From: a virus
Strand: one strand, 5' to 3'
DNA length: 64,000 nucleotides
IMG/VR virus record: IMGVR_UViG_3300008952_000006
Span: 1-64,000 of that record
How positions within the stretch are numbered: position 1 is the stretch's first letter; every line of letters starts with the position of its first letter. Shown here one piece after another: positions 10,708-46,281 of the stretch. The notes under the pieces are model-generated. The model was not told where the DNA came from, did no database searches, and saw only the letters and a list, made by a program, of their open reading frames with translations. A program made the translations under genes and the position numbers.

Positions 10708-11343
10708 ATGAAAGTAATTCACAGCAGCGACCTACACGGTCACTTCGACGCGCTGTTTGCGCATCGGGAGTTCGATCTTTGGATCGACACCGGCGATTTC
10801 TTTCCCAACGAATCTCGGGGAGGCCCGGGGGAAGAAGCGTACCAAAGAAACTGGACACTCGAGGCAGACGTGGCGAAGACTATTGTCAACTGGCTGGATG
10901 GGAGACCTATGGTGTCTGTCCCAGGCAACCATGACTACGCAGACCTTGTAGACATCCTCTGCGCCTACGGAGCCAACGCTCATCGTGTAGACGAGCAGGG
11001 TGTAGAGGTAGCTGGTCTAAAGTTTGCGGGCTTCAGAGAAGTCCCGTGGATTGAGGGAGAATGGAACGGGGAAACATATGCTTTTGAGGCGCTGGTAGCG
11101 TCAACAATCGCGAGCGACCCAGACGTTCTTGTAACTCACGCCCCGCCATCGGGCGTATTAGACCTATGTCCGGATAATAACCATGGTGGAATAAGTGAAC
11201 TAACTACAGCACTCACTTGGTCTGACCATAATATAAGAGCACATTTTTTCGGACATATCCACCAAAACGGTGGGAAGGTTCGGAAAGAGATGGGCATAAA
11301 GTTCATCAACGGGGCCACGAAGGTGTTGACCCACGCTCTTTAA
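10708..11343 (+). CDS. calcineurin-like metallophosphoesterase
   Basis: SDLHG, TGDF, GNHD, THAPP and GHIH motifs. Confidence 0.9.
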   Translation: MKVIHSSDLHGHFDALFAHREFDLWIDTGDFFPNESRGGPGEEAYQRNWTLEADVAKTIVNWLDGRPMVSVPGNHDYADLVDILCAYGANAHRVDEQGVEVAGLKFAGFREVPWIEGEWNGETYAFEALVASTIASDPDVLVTHAPPSGVLDLCPDNNHGGISELTTALTWSDHNIRAHFFGHIHQNGGKVRKEMGIKFINGATKVLTHAL

Positions 11344-12989: not shown

Positions 12990-13177
12990 TTGAGTTCATA
13001 AGAGAACTAATAAAAAATAATCCAAACGGAGATCTCTTAAGTCTTTCTCTCGTAACAGCAGCACGAAGAACGTCTGCAACGTCAGAGGAAGAGATGCTCT
13101 TGAAGAAAGCAATAAAACAGACAGCAGAGCAGAGCATGTGGCCGACAGGATTTTATTCATCGGTGTGATTGCGCTGT

Positions 13178-13206
13178 GCAAAACTGCCCGTTATTTGTGG
13201 GATAAG
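13178..13206 (+). promoter_or_regulatory. recurrent phage promoter motif driving the RNA array and Ro60
   Basis: GCAAAA-N15-GGGATAAG. Confidence 0.7.
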
Positions 13207-13216
13207 AAGAATGGAA

Positions 13217-13284
13217 GAATAGCTAGATGCCGGTGAGGACTACATCGAACAAACATGTCTTTGCTAAATCCTTGCTAGCTATTC
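13217..13284 (+). ncRNA. candidate Y-like RNA 1
   Basis: GAATAGCTAG/CTAGCTATTC 10-bp stem, bulged ATGCCG, then TGAGGA/TCCTTG; upstream of the TROVE gene. Confidence 0.65.
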
Positions 13285-13321
13285 GACCTTTGCTTCCTCC
13301 TAACGGGGGTAGTTTCTTCCC

Positions 13322-13412
13322 GGCTCCGAATGCCGTTGTGGTCTACATACCAAAACTAATGTAGCGTGGCTTAATTGCTGCGTCATGACTACAGCACTTA
13401 TTCGTCGGAGCC
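13322..13412 (+). ncRNA. candidate Y-like RNA 2
   Basis: GGCTCCGA/TCGGAGCC stem, ATGCC bulge, GTTGTGGTC/GACTACAGC stem, two apical hairpins; shares ATGCCG.TG.GG.CTACAT with RNA 1. Confidence 0.7.
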
Positions 13413-13429
13413 ACCCTTTTCTCATGGTC

Positions 13430-13533
13430 GGTGACCACACATGAGGAATTGTATGCGAAGTTGCATAACAGTGGTCACCCATTTACCGGGTTAGGGGGGA
13501 GCATCCAAAACATAACATAGCTCCCCCCTTCCC
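13430..13533 (+). ncRNA. two further stem-loops of the pre-TROVE array
   Basis: GGTGACCAC/GTGGTCACC (13430-13479) and AGGGGGGAGC/GCTCCCCCCT (13493-13529, AC-rich loop). Confidence 0.45.
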
Positions 13534-13641
13534 AACGCTTTCCTCATGCCAGGGGATTTTAAGACCTGGGCCGTCTTTAAAGGGCCCATATTTTTTTCCT
13601 ATAAATAAACTGAACTTTTGTCAATTCTCGTAGGAGGGAAA

Positions 13642-15258
13642 ATGAACCGTGAAATCTTTAATACCCTAACCCAACAGGCCCCATTACCGGAGCCTCTACC
13701 GGAACCACTCGTGCTGAACGAGGCAGGCGGGGCGGCGTACGCTCTGTCGAACATGGAGGCTCTAGCGCAACTCGCCTGTACTGGAACCTTTAACGACACC
13801 TTCTACGAGGGTGGAGCCGAGCAGTTCACCAAGGTACTTGAGCTTTGTGAGCAAGTGCCCCCGCGCTTTATTGCGCAGTGTGCGATCTACGCACACCAGC
13901 AAGGGAAGATGAAAGATATGCCAGCGTTGTTGCTGGCTATCGTGGCGTCGAAAGACGTCACCTTGTTTCCAATGCTGTTCGCGACAGTGGTGGGAGGCAA
14001 CCCTAAAATGCTGCGGAACTTCGTCCAGATCATCCGGTCTGGGGTGTTGGGTCGTAGGTCCTTTGGGTATCGCCCCAAGAAGGAGATCCAACAGTGGTTC
14101 CAGGAACGGGACCCCCTGACTCTACTGAAATGTTCAGTGGGAGGGTCGCCAACCCTGGGGGACATCATAAAGATGACTCATCCGAAACCACTGTACCCGT
14201 CTCAGGGTGCAATGTTCGGCTACCTGTGTGGCAGGGAGTACAATATTGAACTTCTCACCCAGCCTGTGCGGGAGTACATCCTGGCCACGCAGGGAGGGGC
14301 CATCACTGATGATGTGCTGAAGCTGCCGCACAGGTTGTTGACCAACCTGGAGTTGTCTGCCCAAGACTGGCGAACTATCGCTCTGAACTCGGGCTGGACC
14401 GCTCAACGGATGAACCTTAATACGTTCGCCCGTCATGGTGTCTTTGAGGGGCCAATGGGAGACTTCACAGCCGAAAGGCTGGCCGAAAAGCTTGCTGACC
14501 CCGTTAGGGTTCGCAACAGCGGCTGTTTCCCATACCAACTTCTGCAGGCTTTTAAGTCTGTCGATGGTGGGGTGCCTCAAGTGGTGAAGGCGGCATTGGA
14601 AAATGCGCTGGACACAGCCTGCTACAATGTTCCTGAGATGGATGGGCGAATGGCAGTACTGGTTGACACCAGCTACTCCATGACCCAAGCCATTACTGGG
14701 AACCGTAGAGGGTCCACATCGGCCACAAGCTGCGTAGACGTAGCGGCCTTAGTCGCCTCAGCGTTCTTGAAGAAGAACCAGGGCAACTGTGAGGTGGTTC
14801 CGTTTGATACGCGGGTCCATGGGGCAATGCTGCAGGCCGGGGCACCAGTTATGGCGAATGCCCAAAAGCTGGCTGACCTTGGCGGGGGTGGTACAGATAT
14901 TGGATGTGCTATTGCGCATCTGAATTCTATAGGCCACACCGGAGAGCTGGTGATCCTTGTGAGTGACAACGAAAGTTGGTTCACGGGTGACCAAGCAAGC
15001 TACCGTAGCAACTACTACAACTCGGGCACCAGCCCGACCCAGGAATGGGTGGCATATAAAGCCAGAAACCCAACCGCGAAGTTGGTGTGCATTGATATCC
15101 AACCGTACTCCACCACACAGGTGGCTACGGACAAGGACGTCTTGAATATTGGAGGCTTTAGTGACTCCGTATTTGAAGCTATTAAAAGCTTCGTGGACAG
15201 CGATGGAGAAGAAAGTTGGATCAAGTTGATTGAAACTCAGGTTGGTTCTCTGGTATAA
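13642..15258 (+). CDS. rsr: Ro60/Rsr-like TROVE plus vWA RNA-binding protein
   Basis: N-terminal NEAGGAAY, TGTFNDTFY, MKDMPALL, RMNLNTFARHG, FPYQLL; vWA DTSYSM, GGGTD, SDNESW, IGGFSD. Confidence 0.92.
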   Translation: MNREIFNTLTQQAPLPEPLPEPLVLNEAGGAAYALSNMEALAQLACTGTFNDTFYEGGAEQFTKVLELCEQVPPRFIAQCAIYAHQQGKMKDMPALLLAIVASKDVTLFPMLFATVVGGNPKMLRNFVQIIRSGVLGRRSFGYRPKKEIQQWFQERDPLTLLKCSVGGSPTLGDIIKMTHPKPLYPSQGAMFGYLCGREYNIELLTQPVREYILATQGGAITDDVLKLPHRLLTNLELSAQDWRTIALNSGWTAQRMNLNTFARHGVFEGPMGDFTAERLAEKLADPVRVRNSGCFPYQLLQAFKSVDGGVPQVVKAALENALDTACYNVPEMDGRMAVLVDTSYSMTQAITGNRRGSTSATSCVDVAALVASAFLKKNQGNCEVVPFDTRVHGAMLQAGAPVMANAQKLADLGGGGTDIGCAIAHLNSIGHTGELVILVSDNESWFTGDQASYRSNYYNSGTSPTQEWVAYKARNPTAKLVCIDIQPYSTTQVATDKDVLNIGGFSDSVFEAIKSFVDSDGEESWIKLIETQVGSLV

Positions 15259-15325
15259 ACGGCGCTTCCGCCGGAAGGTGTGGGATTAAGTAGATCCCCC
15301 CCTTTCGGTGGAGCAACGCTGTAAC

Positions 15326-15348
15326 AGGGGCTTCGGCCCCTCTTTTTT
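15326..15348 (+). terminator. intrinsic terminator
   Basis: AGGGGC-TTCG-GCCCCT followed by a T tract. Confidence 0.85.
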
Positions 15349-20738: not shown

Positions 20739-21587
20739 ATGGGTACTACGGTAATTATCGGAGATGTGCATGGATGCACTCTCGAATTAAAGTTTATGCT
20801 CGCCCTTGTCGGGGCTACGTATGATATTGAGGAAGTTATTTTCGTAGGTGACTTAATGGATAAGGGGCCCGCGTCAGCAGCGACATTAGAATTTGTCCGA
20901 GAGATGGACGAGGTGGGGCTTGCCGTAAAGCAGGACCTAAAGAAAATTACTGTGACCGTGGTAGAAGGTAACCACGAGAACAAGAACTTTCGCTTCTGGA
21001 CAAAAATGGCGGCGGGGGATGTAGAGGGCGCAATGGCCATGAAGGGGTCTGAGGAGATGGCCAGCATCTTTGAGGAAACATCCCAGGAGCTACGGGACTG
21101 GATGCGTGCAAAGTGCGTACCCTATGTCGTAAAGCCTGATTTGGGCCTAGCCGTGGTGCATGGTGGCATTCTCCCCTCTGTTGTGAAGTTGCCTCAGGAA
21201 CCTACAGAGCTTGGGGGTAAAAATAAACGCCGAGTTTTGCGGTCTATGTATATCAGGTATGTAGATAAGGACACGGGATCCATGATTAAATTCATGGATG
21301 AAAAACCAGGGGATCCCTTTTGGGCTGATATATATGATGGCCGCTTTGGTCATATATACTTCGGACACCAACCGTGGTTGGGTCAGACGTCCTGGGACGA
21401 GCCGCGTCCCCTCGACTTCACGAGAAAAGGAAACCCTAAGAAGTTCCCGCATGCTACAGGTTTAGACCTGGGGTGTGTCCATGGAGGCGAGCTTTGCGCC
21501 GTTTTGATTGATAACGAAACCCGTGAGCGTGAATTTTACTCCGTGAGTGCAGAACAGGAGTACTGCGCCCCATTGGACATCAATTAA
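20739..21587 (+). CDS. PPP-family metallophosphoesterase (PrpE/ApaH/Pnkp-phosphatase-like)
   Basis: GDVHG, GDLMDKGP, GNHE, HGG, FGH, LDLGCVHGG.L.A. Confidence 0.9.
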   Translation: MGTTVIIGDVHGCTLELKFMLALVGATYDIEEVIFVGDLMDKGPASAATLEFVREMDEVGLAVKQDLKKITVTVVEGNHENKNFRFWTKMAAGDVEGAMAMKGSEEMASIFEETSQELRDWMRAKCVPYVVKPDLGLAVVHGGILPSVVKLPQEPTELGGKNKRRVLRSMYIRYVDKDTGSMIKFMDEKPGDPFWADIYDGRFGHIYFGHQPWLGQTSWDEPRPLDFTRKGNPKKFPHATGLDLGCVHGGELCAVLIDNETREREFYSVSAEQEYCAPLDIN

Positions 21588-21674
21588 AAATAGTGGGGGG
21601 TGTAAAGCCCCCTCACTTCTTTTTATTTATTACTCGACTTCTTCAGCCCATATTACTTGTTATATCATTTAATT

Positions 21675-22841
21675 ATGGGGAAATTACTAATAATACTCGT
21701 ACTAGTATTTTCAGTAGGTTGTCAGGAAGAATATCGTCTCCTCAATATACGATGCCAACAGCCTTGCTACACAGGTCCACCTGAAACAAAAGACGTAGGT
21801 ATATGTAGGTCCGGAACCCCTGTTTGCGAGAACGAGGAAATAATTAGTTGTGAAGGGGAAGTCCTCCCAGAGGATGAGTACTGTGACCTAATTGATAATG
21901 ACTGCAACGGAACTGTTGATGACTCGGTGTGGGATGAGGAAGCAAACACTTCCTGCGGCTCCAATGTTGGCGAGTGCTACACGGGCCTAAACATATGTAC
22001 TAACGGTGGGATAGAGTGCGTCGGGGCAAGAGATGCGTCGGAAGAAACCTGTAATGGTCTAGACGATGACTGTAACGGATTTATAGATGACATGGAGCTT
22101 CTTGGTTACTGTTACGACGGAGATCCAGAAGACCTCTACCACGGAGAATGTCACGCAGGGATATTGATATGCGTGGACGGACTAGAGGTTTGCGACCAGC
22201 AACAGATGCCCACCGAAGAAATATGTGACGACCTTGACAACGATTGTGATGGTTTTATTGACGAGGACCTAAATGAAGGTGAGGAAGTAGACATCGTATT
22301 TGTCCTAGACAGGTCTGGTTCAATGAGAGATCACTTCCCAAGCGTGGCTAACGCGGCGCAACTATTCGCTGCAGCCTTTGCGGGAGTTCCGGAATTCCAA
22401 TTTGCGCTTGTAGGTATTCCCCACAGCCCCGGAACGTCTGACGTTGAGGTGCTCCTAGATTTTACCGATGCCTCGACATTTGTATCCACGCTTGCCACAA
22501 TGTCCACAACAGGTGGTGGAGCGGAAGCCAGCTATGATGCCCCGTACGCAGCCTCCAATGGAGATCTCGGCCTCTCTTGGCGAAGTGGTGACACTAGGAA
22601 GTACATTGTGCTGTTCACCGATGAGCAGGCTCAGAGCTATGTCTCCCCCGCATTGACGGAGGCCGACGTAGCTGCAGAGTTAGTGGCAGAAGATATTACT
22701 TTTTATGGTTTCATCTCCTCAATATACTATAGCCAGTTCGACGACATCGCTGACGACACAGGCGGAGCTATCTATTACCTAGGAAGCTCAGCTGACATGG
22801 AAGACGACCTAGCGAAAATATTCGACGACGAGTGTTGGTAG
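21675..22841 (+). CDS. lipoprotein with MopE-type C-D-x-x-D-N-D-C repeats and a C-terminal vWA domain
   Basis: Lipobox SVGC; three E.C...D.DC.G..D repeats; vWA MIDAS DRSGS, GGAE, FTDE. Confidence 0.85.
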   Translation: MGKLLIILVLVFSVGCQEEYRLLNIRCQQPCYTGPPETKDVGICRSGTPVCENEEIISCEGEVLPEDEYCDLIDNDCNGTVDDSVWDEEANTSCGSNVGECYTGLNICTNGGIECVGARDASEETCNGLDDDCNGFIDDMELLGYCYDGDPEDLYHGECHAGILICVDGLEVCDQQQMPTEEICDDLDNDCDGFIDEDLNEGEEVDIVFVLDRSGSMRDHFPSVANAAQLFAAAFAGVPEFQFALVGIPHSPGTSDVEVLLDFTDASTFVSTLATMSTTGGGAEASYDAPYAASNGDLGLSWRSGDTRKYIVLFTDEQAQSYVSPALTEADVAAELVAEDITFYGFISSIYYSQFDDIADDTGGAIYYLGSSADMEDDLAKIFDDECW

Positions 22842-46255: not shown

Positions 46256-46281
46256 TGAGTTAAGAGGTATTCTTGTGGCGT

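What the first reader, a model, noticed from the sequence alone, without database searches (positions are those of the whole stretch)
13178..15348. Phage Ro60/TROVE operon preceded by an array of Y-like RNAs with a shared bulged AUGCCG element
Seen: a promoter motif, then ~400 nt of consecutive stem-loops, then full-length Ro60 and a terminator. Two units (13217-13284, 13322-13412) have different outer stems but share ATGCCG.TG.GG.CTACAT and the same fold: stem, AUGCC bulge, stem, then an ACAU/AUGU hairpin with an AC-rich loop. That amounts to covariation within one locus. Known: bacterial Rsr genes lie beside Y RNAs, Ro binds a bulged helix, and YrlA RNAs mimic tRNA; some phages carry them. 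These RNAs show no T-arm (GTTCRA), and no rtcB is present in the window. Inference: a non-YrlA class of Ro-binding RNAs, possibly tethering different partners to a phage Ro60.
Basis: partly seen in the sequence, partly recalled or inferred. Interest (0 to 1): 0.85.

Follow-up and report, generated by a model that had tools for sequence, protein, structure and literature searches.

The report
Phage Ro60 with two Y-like RNAs
An uncultured 173-kb phage carries a Ro60 RNA-binding protein gene preceded by two small Y-type RNAs that bear the standard bacterial Ro60 docking site but no tRNA-like domain; the feature is real, but it belongs to a kind already described in bacteria and other phages.

Summary
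13216-13285 and 13319-13415 (+) are two structured RNAs upstream of a full-length Ro60/TROVE gene (13642-15258). A covariance model built from 21 short units of other phage Ro60 loci plus unit 1 finds only these two sites in the 173-kb genome. It also finds 71 sites in 80 phage Ro60 loci and 122 in 82 bacterial rsr loci, all on the Ro60 strand, with strong covariation in the terminal helix.

The "shared bulged AUGCCG...CUACAU element" is not new. It is the canonical Ro60-binding module of bacterial Y RNA-like (Yrl) RNAs: the published GNCGAAN0-1G and YUAY motifs. Every Rfam-scored YrlA I fetched carries it.

The two units do lack the tRNA-like T and D arms and score as neither Rfam YrlA nor YrlB. 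They are therefore non-tRNA-like Y RNAs, like Salmonella YrlB, Deinococcus Yrn2 or Thermus phage phiLo Yrl1/Yrl2, which also lie upstream of a phage Ro60.

Unit 2 has a three-way-junction apical module with an invariant UUAAUU loop, conserved by compensatory changes in a related phage.

The phage encodes no RtcB, PNPase or tRNA, so any tethered partner is probably a host protein. Verdict: new members of a known kind; modest interest.

The parts
13176..13207 (+). Candidate phage promoter, GTGCAAAA-N17-GATAAGA. The predicted start is near G13213/G13214, just before the unit 1 stem.
   Evidence: Conserved in L002 and L004 at the same place. The motif occurs 3 times in the 173-kb genome, all on the + strand; the 13176 and 46280 copies were checked and lie ahead of a transcription unit, the third at 121015 was not examined. 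It does not match the sigma-70 consensus scan. Function is inferred.
13213..13288 (+). Yrl unit 1 (core 13217-13284). It has a 10-bp terminal helix, an internal loop (5' AUGCC, 3' AAAUCCUUG), a 9-bp inner helix and an apical loop UACAUCGAACAAACAU. It is hairpin-type, with no tRNA-like domain.
   Evidence: Fold -24.2 kcal/mol, z -4.0. R1 59.1 bits. Weak Rfam YrlB alignment, 16.4 bits, E 2.6. Orthologues in L002, L004 and L014 have compensatory stems and a conserved CGAAC loop.
13295..13319 (+). Small hairpin (CCUCC-UAAC-GGGGG) plus a U-rich tail between the units. It may be an attenuating terminator or a processing signal.
   Evidence: Terminator-like in the scan. L002 and L004 have a different hairpin followed by the same UUCUUUCC at this place. 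Function is inferred.
13319..13415 (+). Yrl unit 2 (core 13322-13412). It has an 8-bp terminal helix ending in CCGA, an internal loop (5' AUGCC, 3' ACUUAUUCG), a 9-bp inner helix, then a three-way junction with hairpin CUACAU/AUGUAG and a 7-bp hairpin with loop UUAAUU.
   Evidence: Fold -36 kcal/mol, z -4.6. R1 37.9 bits, E 1e-6, not in the training set. Against L002 unit 2, 29 of 29 pairs are kept, 6 by changes on both sides, and the loop UUAAUU is invariant.
13430..13533 (+). Two further hairpins (13430-13479 and 13488-13533, the latter with a 10-bp G/C stem and a 17-nt A/C-rich loop). They are not Ro-type units and their role is unknown.
   Evidence: Folds (z -2.1 and -5.3). R1 with filters off gives at most 5.8 bits. 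No similar sequence in the genome or in any fetched locus.
13567..13598 (+). Intrinsic-terminator-like hairpin GGGCC...GGCCC followed by AUAUUUUUUU, between the RNA array and Ro60.
   Evidence: Sequence and fold. The consensus scan misses it because the loop is 10 nt. L002 and L004 have nothing comparable.
13642..15258 (+). Ro60/Rsr orthologue, 538 aa (TROVE HEAT-repeat ring plus a vWA domain with MIDAS D342-x-S344-x-S346). The ribosome-binding site AGGAGGG is at 13632-13638.
   Evidence: Pfam PF25045 35 bits and PF05731 27 bits, both above their cut-offs. phrog_850, 1.8e-26. 45-50% identity to bacterial Rsr and 57-58% to related phages. Matches the PDB Ro60 chains 1yvp, 2nvo, 9kop and 9nen.
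15326..15348 (+). Intrinsic terminator after Ro60 (AGGGGC-UUCG-GCCCCU plus a U-run).

Best explanation
The locus encodes a phage Ro60 ribonucleoprotein of the known bacterial type.

A phage promoter drives two small Y RNA-like (Yrl) RNAs of about 75 and 95 nt. The Ro60 gene follows, either by read-through or from its own start. In each RNA the 5' and 3' ends pair into a long stem that carries the conserved Ro60/Rsr docking module:
- the outer helix;
- an internal loop, 5' RAUGC opposite 3' N5-6-YUUG;
- the inner helix;
- the sequence YUACAU.

By analogy with solved Ro60-Y RNA complexes, Ro60 should bind this module on the outer face of its ring. The two different apical modules are then left free to act as tethers or gates. 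Unit 1 offers an A/C-rich loop with CGAAC. Unit 2 offers a three-way junction with a UUAAUU hairpin.

The phage has no PNPase, RtcB or tRNA genes. The most likely partner is therefore a host factor, host PNPase being the precedent. That would redirect host 3'-to-5' RNA decay or quality control during infection.

Shown here: the RNAs, their structure, their family membership and their linkage to Ro60. Inferred: Ro60 binding, separate processing of the units, and the partner.
For: 1. The units are significant and unique. R1 gives 59.1 and 37.9 bits, the only matches in the 173-kb genome.
2. The same module lies next to Ro60 elsewhere. There are 71 matches in 80 phage loci and 122 in 82 bacterial loci, all on the Ro60 strand. 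An independent descriptor gives 84 to 1, 233 to 5 and 187 to 0 for the Ro60 strand against the opposite strand.
3. Covariation. The outer helix is 93.9% paired and all 8 pairs change on both sides. The covariation score is 0.716, against 0.13-0.21 when the partners are slid.
4. The module equals that of bona fide YrlA. R1 matches coincide with RF02553 matches in L156, and all 13 RF02553-scored sequences read GAAUGC..GGAACUACAU...CUUGUC. It corresponds to the published GNCGAAN0-1G and YUAY motifs (PMC4201824).
5. Orthologous arrays of three units sit upstream of Ro60 in L002/L003 and L004, with compensatory changes.
6. Ro60 is intact and 45-50% identical to Rsr proteins whose loci hold YrlA.
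7. Precedent: Thermus phage phiLo Ro60 binds two upstream Yrl RNAs and forms a complex with host PNPase (PMC12135203).
8. The phage genome has no RtcB, RNase PH/PNPase domain or tRNA.
Against: - No expression, end-mapping or binding data exist for this phage.
- Unit 1 lacks the CGAA of the published motif; it reads UAGAUG.
- R1 does not match the phiLo, Mycobacterium phage Myrna or Myxococcus phage Mx1 Ro60 loci. The module is therefore specific to one Ro60 subfamily, and the phiLo analogy is functional, not sequence-based.
- PNPase tethering in Deinococcus and Salmonella involves tRNA-like or large-loop effector modules. These units lack the tRNA-like one, so the partner is open.
- R1 and its alignment were seeded with units chosen for pairing, so part of the pair statistics is by construction. 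Strand bias, position next to Ro60 and overlap with Rfam YrlA do not depend on that choice.
Confidence: 0.85

Rival explanations
1. The units are not free small RNAs. They are Ro60-binding sites in the 5' leader of the Ro60 mRNA, and Ro60 uses them to feed back on its own transcript (stability, termination or translation).
For: - The units lie directly upstream on the same strand.
- In L002 and L004 no strong terminator separates the last unit from Ro60.
- M. smegmatis YrlA and YrlB are made from one precursor with rsr (PMC4201824).
- A pyrimidine stretch (13540-13547) could pair with the ribosome-binding site (descriptor hit).
Against: - In bacteria the same units mostly lie downstream of rsr, so position in a leader is not a family feature.
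- In this window a good terminator (13567-13598) and 230 nt separate unit 2 from the start codon.
- Known family members accumulate as stable small RNAs bound to Ro60.
Confidence: 0.08
2. The units are ordinary YrlA-type tRNA mimics that the models fail to recognise.
For: - They share the full Ro-binding module with YrlA.
- Unit 2 has two hairpins at the place where YrlA has its T and acceptor-like stem-loops.
Against: - RF02553 gives no match at E up to 10 in the genome or the locus.
- ARAGORN finds nothing.
- There is no GGUUCRA T-loop and no UAGCUCAG D-loop. Unit 2 hairpin 2 has a 6-nt UUAAUU loop closed by C-G.
- The same searches do find YrlA, and T-arm-only units of about 105 nt, in bacterial loci.
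Confidence: 0.03
3. The units recruit a partner other than PNPase, such as a phage protein or a different host RNA-binding protein, through new effector modules. This phage clade would then use Ro60 for a task not yet described.
For: - There is no tRNA-like or large pyrimidine-rich module.
- Unit 2's second hairpin keeps an invariant UUAAUU loop while 5 of its 7 stem pairs change.
- Unit 1 orthologues keep CGAAC in the apical loop across phages whose Ro60 is only 46-58% identical.
- By the descriptor, 23 of 37 phage loci with units have no T-arm-bearing unit, against 15 of 76 bacterial genome loci.
Against: - No partner is identified, and neighbouring genes have no informative domains.
- Hairpin-type Y RNAs coexist with PNPase-binding ones in bacteria, and their partners are unknown there too.
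- Only two independent sequences support the unit 2 module.
Confidence: 0.25

Closest known systems
Thermus phage phiLo Ro60 with Yrl1 and Yrl2 (Nucleic Acids Res 2025, PMC12135203; PDB 9KOP, 9L5Y)
   Same: - A large phage encodes Ro60 with two Y RNA-like genes immediately upstream.
- The RNAs have a stem, internal loop, stem architecture around a CGAA-type motif.
- The phage has no PNPase of its own, so a host partner is proposed.
   Different: - The Ro60 proteins are only about 22% identical.
- My model of the window's module does not match the phiLo locus, so the RNAs belong to a different sequence subfamily.
- Binding and PNPase recruitment were shown for phiLo and are only inferred here.
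Non-tRNA-like bacterial Y RNAs: Salmonella YrlB (Rfam RF02565), M. smegmatis YrlB, D. radiodurans Yrn2 (PMC4201824)
   Same: - They are encoded beside rsr on the same strand.
- They form a long hairpin closed by the 5' and 3' ends, with the Ro60 motif in the 5' strand, and no full tRNA-like domain.
- Unit 1 aligns end to end with RF02565, including GaAUGC and AUUUGuC.
   Different: - The Rfam score is far below threshold (16.4 against 97 bits).
- The published ones have small pyrimidine-rich loops, whereas unit 1 has a 16-nt A/C-rich loop.
- Unit 2 is a three-way junction.
YrlA (Rfam RF02553), the tRNA-mimicking bacterial Y RNA
   Same: - The Ro60-binding module is identical: outer helix, GAAUGC, GGNNYUACAU, then CUUGUC.
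- It shows the same linkage to Ro60.
   Different: The window's units have no T-arm, D-arm or acceptor-like stem, and RF02553 gives no match at E up to 10.
Metazoan Y RNAs (hY1-hY5, Xenopus Y3)
   Same: - Modular design: a terminal stem with a conserved Ro60 site and a variable effector loop.
- The 5'-strand motif CCGAA and a 3'-strand CUUG-type sequence resemble unit 2 (the hY1 sequence is from my own knowledge; PMC4201824 for GGUCCGA).
   Different: - Transcribed by polymerase III.
- A bulged-C helix rather than the AUGC internal loop.
- No Rfam Y_RNA match here.

Membership tests
Bacterial/phage Y RNA-like (Yrl) RNAs, defined by the Ro60-binding module | The 5' and 3' ends pair into a long terminal stem | tested here: met
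   10-bp (unit 1) and 8-bp (unit 2) terminal helices. Family-wide, the helix is 93.9% paired and all 8 pairs covary.
Bacterial/phage Y RNA-like (Yrl) RNAs, defined by the Ro60-binding module | 5'-strand motif GNCGAAN0-1G (Chen et al. 2014, PMC4201824) | tested here: inconclusive
   Unit 2 reads UCCGAAUG: CGAAUG is present and the first G is a U. Unit 1 reads CUAGAUG, with no CGAA. The two bases before AUGC covary with the two after UUG (GA/UC, AG/CU, GG/CC), so unit 1 is a paired variant. AUGC itself is invariant in 21 of 21 aligned units.
Bacterial/phage Y RNA-like (Yrl) RNAs, defined by the Ro60-binding module | Conserved YUAY after the 5' strand of the inner helix | tested here: met
   CUAC in both units. 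UAC is invariant in alignment A2, and CUAC/GUAC is present in all fetched RF02553 sequences.
Bacterial/phage Y RNA-like (Yrl) RNAs, defined by the Ro60-binding module | Encoded within about 4 kb of a Ro60 orthologue on the same strand | tested here: met
   The units lie 230-430 nt upstream of Ro60 on the + strand. All 193 R1 matches elsewhere are on the Ro60 strand.
Bacterial/phage Y RNA-like (Yrl) RNAs, defined by the Ro60-binding module | Bound by Ro60/Rsr | not testable with these tools
   Needs EMSA, RIP or a structure.
YrlA (Rfam RF02553) | Score at or above the gathering threshold (69 bits) | tested here: not met
   No match at gathering and none at E up to 10. The same model scores 70-84 bits in bacterial loci.
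YrlA (Rfam RF02553) | tRNA-like T-arm (GGUUCRAnnCC) and D-arm (UAGCUCAG..) | tested here: not met
   Neither motif is in either unit. ARAGORN finds no tRNA-like gene in the genome.
YrlB (Rfam RF02565, Salmonella) | Score at or above the gathering threshold (97 bits) | tested here: not met
   Unit 1 scores 16.4 bits, E 2.6, as a full-length alignment. Unit 2 gives no match.
Ro60/TROVE protein (Rsr orthologue) | TROVE HEAT-repeat domain plus a Ro60-type vWA domain with MIDAS DxSxS | tested here: met
   PF05731 27 bits (cut-off 23) and PF25045 35 bits (cut-off 27.7). D342, S344 and S346 are invariant in A1. PDB Ro60 chains are matched.

The most novel reading that the evidence does not exclude
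The clade formed by this phage, L002/L003 and L004 has dropped tRNA mimicry. It uses Y RNAs with new effector modules: unit 2's three-way junction with an invariant UUAAUU hairpin loop, and unit 1's CGAAC-bearing A/C-rich loop. These would dock Ro60 to a partner other than PNPase, giving a phage-specific Ro60 function such as takeover of host RNA decay or evasion of RNA-targeting defence.
Probability: 0.25. Interest if true: 0.55.

Novelty: new member of a known kind. Interest (0 to 1): 0.3.

Why it matters
Ro60-Y RNA particles are conserved from bacteria to humans, yet their roles in phages are barely explored. Only one phage system, phiLo, has been characterised biochemically.

This locus adds a clean, compact example with two Y RNAs that have distinct apical modules, no tRNA mimicry, and no phage-encoded PNPase, RtcB or tRNA. 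It suits the question of what a phage Ro60 particle recruits.

The comparative work gives three by-products:
- A usable signature of the Ro60 docking module in this Ro60 subfamily: outer helix, RAUGC, GGNYUACAU, then YUUGYC.
- Arrays of one to eight such units are the rule beside rsr in bacteria.
- Most phage loci that carry units hold only units without a T-arm.

None of this changes the current picture of Y RNAs. It extends it.

Tried and rejected
- Rfam at gathering on the window gave nothing. At E up to 10 only a weak YrlB alignment appeared for unit 1, and the other weak matches (ylbH, mir-1549, suhB and so on) are noise.
- RF02553 on the whole genome gave nothing.
- DNA search of the locus against the named phage collection gave no match.
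- A single-protein scan of viral contigs gave nothing. An alignment query was needed.
- The metagenome scan brought no relative closer than 49%. The unit 2 module therefore rests on two independent sequences.
- The pattern scan for unit-2-like 5' halves found only known loci plus L170, which has short hairpin units beside a tRNA.
- A third Ro-type unit in 13416-13600 is rejected: R1 with filters off gives at most 5.8 bits. A descriptor hit at 13538-13638 that would pair CUUUCCUC with the ribosome-binding site is weak and was not pursued.
- R1 does not match the phiLo, Myrna or Mx1 Ro60 loci.
- Host assignment from a conserved ATPase was uninformative.
- Among phage loci, T-arm-bearing units and nearby tRNA genes go together only weakly (9/14 against 9/23, loci not independent). 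No claim is made.
- Two reviews by the Wolin laboratory were not held in the library.
Full report
**What is there**

The window is the first 64 kb of a complete 173,034-bp IMG/VR virus record with direct terminal repeats. On the + strand, the stop of a small conserved ORF at 13168 is followed by a 470-nt non-coding stretch. After it comes a 538-aa ORF (ATG 13642 behind AGGAGGG, stop 15258).

The ORF is a Ro60/Rsr orthologue:
- Pfam vWA_Ro60 and TROVE are both above their cut-offs, and phrog_850 matches.
- It is 45-50% identical to thousands of bacterial TROVE proteins and 57-58% to three related large phage contigs.
- It matches the solved Ro60 chains of Xenopus, human, Deinococcus and Thermus phage phiLo.
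- An intrinsic terminator follows at 15326-15348.

**The observation**

Their folds match: terminal helix, asymmetric internal loop with 5' AUGCC, inner helix. The energies lie well beyond shuffled controls (z -4.0 and -4.6). The whole leader has z -5.2.

Unit 1 ends in a 16-nt A/C-rich loop. Unit 2 ends in a three-way junction: a CUACAU/AUGUAG hairpin and a 7-bp hairpin with loop UUAAUU.

The rest of the "array" (13416-13600) holds two other hairpins and a good terminator (GGGCC...GGCCC plus U7, 13567-13598). It holds no third Ro-type unit, and nothing similar occurs in the genome or in any fetched locus.

The promoter motif is credible. GTGCAAAA-N17-GATAAGA at 13176-13207 is conserved at the same place in the related phages. 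It occurs three times in the genome, always on the + strand; the two copies inside the window, at 13176 and 46280, each lie ahead of a transcription unit.

**Relatives**

The three closest phage contigs (L002/L003, L004) each have three units upstream of Ro60. Each unit has a 5' stem-GAAUGC(C)G...UACAU and ...AAC(C)UUGUC-3' stem, and the stems differ.

A simple descriptor found many such units in the 80 viral Ro60 loci. I aligned 21 short ones, among them the window's unit 1.
- AUGC, UAC and U.G of YUUG are invariant.
- RNAalifold recovered the terminal helix, and all 8 of its pairs show changes on both sides.

The covariance model R1 built from this alignment gave these results:
- It finds only the two units in the window and in the whole genome. 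Unit 2, not in the training set, scores 37.9 bits at E about 1e-6.
- It finds 71 sites in the 80 phage loci and 122 sites in 82 bacterial rsr loci. Every one is on the Ro60 strand.
- On the phage matches the outer helix is 93.9% paired and the inner helix 69.5%. The covariation score is 0.716, against 0.13-0.21 for slid partners.

The seeds were chosen for pairing, so those pair counts lean towards the structure. The strand bias and the position next to Ro60 do not depend on that choice.

**Identity of the shared element**

Chen et al. 2014 (PMC4201824) described two conserved features of bacterial Y RNA-like RNAs. One is a GNCGAAN0-1G motif near the 5' end, thought to be the Rsr contact. The other is a conserved YUAY that begins the variable region.

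Unit 2 reads UCCGAAUG...CUAC and unit 1 reads CUAGAUG...CUAC.

Rfam YrlA (RF02553) scores 70-84 bits at 13 sites in named bacterial loci. Two of these coincide with R1 matches in L156. All 13 sequences read ...GCGAAUGC.GG.GGAACUACAU......CUUGUCGC....

So the element is the standard Ro60-docking module of the Yrl family, not a new one.

**What the units are not**

- RF02553 gives no match at E up to 10.
- ARAGORN finds no tRNA-like gene in the genome.
- Neither unit has a GGUUCRA T-loop or a UAGCUCAG D-loop.
- Unit 1 aligns end to end with Salmonella YrlB (RF02565), but at only 16.4 bits against a threshold of 97.

They are therefore Yrl RNAs of the non-tRNA-like sort. That group already includes Salmonella and M. 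smegmatis YrlB and Deinococcus Yrn2.

The closest published parallel is Thermus phage phiLo. Two Yrl RNAs lie just upstream of its Ro60 gene, bind the protein, and form a complex with host PNPase (PMC12135203). That Ro60 is only about 22% identical to this one, and R1 does not match its locus. The parallel is one of architecture and function.

**Context across loci (descriptor)**

| Loci | Distinct units, Ro60 strand | Opposite strand | Loci with at least one unit | Of those, with a T-arm-bearing unit | Units without T or D arm |
|---|---|---|---|---|---|
| Bacterial genomes (80) | 233 | 5 | 76 | 61 | 87 (median 66 nt) |
| Phage contigs (80) | 84 | 1 | 33 | 14 | 60 |

- Bacterial loci hold one to eight units each.
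- A class of about 105 nt has a T-arm but no D-arm.
- Counts for the phage row leave out sequences identical to one already seen. With such repeats kept, 37 phage loci have a unit and 23 of them have none with a T-arm.

An array made only of non-tRNA-like units, as here, is thus common in phages and less common in bacteria. [quoted passage not shown] That statement came from searches with a YrlA model.

**Conservation of the apical modules**

Unit 2 and its L002 orthologue keep all 29 pairs, 6 of them through changes on both sides. In the second hairpin 5 of 7 pairs differ while the loop UUAAUU is unchanged.

Unit 1 orthologues in L002, L004 and L014 keep UACAU..CGAAC in the apical loop while both helices change.

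A small hairpin followed by UUCUUUCC separates units 1 and 2 in all three phages. The hairpin sequences differ. This suggests an attenuator or a processing signal.

**Mechanism**

Ro60 most probably binds the docking module of each RNA on the outside of its ring, as in the Xenopus and phiLo complexes. The apical modules then gate the ring or tether it to a partner.

The phage genome has no RtcB domain, no RNase PH/PNPase domain and no tRNA. Neighbouring genes give no informative domains. A partner would therefore be a host protein, with PNPase as the precedent.

The RNAs, their fold, their family and their linkage to Ro60 are shown here. Binding, processing and the partner are inferred.

**Verdict**

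The feature is real and well supported. Its defining element is already known, and a phage Ro60 with upstream Yrl RNAs has been published. It is a new member of a known kind.

The part that could still prove new is the pair of apical modules in a clade without any tRNA mimic. I put that at about one in four.

Noticed in passing
L027:5232-5367 (also L060:897-1121): A Y-type terminal stem with the Ro module encloses a complete, non-permuted tRNA-like cloverleaf. Rfam tRNA scores 56 bits at 5271-5343 and ARAGORN calls tRNA-Ile(AAU). It lies next to a phage tmRNA gene. This is a different arrangement from the permuted tRNA-like domain of YrlA.
   Followed up: partly
L021, L031, L062, L066, L095, L117, L130 (whole loci): In many phages and some bacteria the Ro60 gene and its Yrl units sit inside dense tRNA gene arrays, with up to about 18 tRNAs within 3 kb and sometimes a tmRNA. 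The window's phage has no tRNA at all.
   Followed up: partly
window 13176, 46280; genome position 121015: The motif GTGCAAAA-N16/17-(G/T)ATAAGA occurs three times in the 173-kb genome, all on the + strand. The copy at 46280 lies about 60 nt ahead of a gene start. It is probably a phage promoter class that does not fit the sigma-70 consensus scan.
   Followed up: partly
window 13416-13600: This stretch holds two strong hairpins. One has a 10-bp G/C stem and a 17-nt A/C-rich loop, with z -5.3. They lie between unit 2 and the terminator, have no Ro module, and have no relatives in the genome or in about 250 fetched loci. In the related phages a third Yrl unit occupies this position.
   Followed up: partly
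L127:4785-4890, L160:4703-4807, L126:4787-4887 and about 100 others: A recurrent bacterial Yrl class of about 105 nt has the Ro module, a perfect T-arm (GGGUUCGAAUCCC) and one more hairpin, but no D-arm. It usually lies between a short hairpin unit and a full YrlA, downstream of rsr.
   Followed up: partly
L084 (Myxococcus phage Mx1, OR576727.2 52975-62552): This is the closest Ro60 in a cultured phage (44.6% identity). It has no R1-type unit within 4 kb. Two small "hypothetical protein" CDSs and a tRNA-Gly follow the gene.
   Followed up: partly
I did not examine it.
   Followed up: no
window 10708-11343, 20739-21587, 21657-22841: Two calcineurin-like phosphoesterase genes and a second vWA-domain protein with MopE-like metal-binding motifs lie in the same + strand gene block as Ro60.
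   Followed up: no
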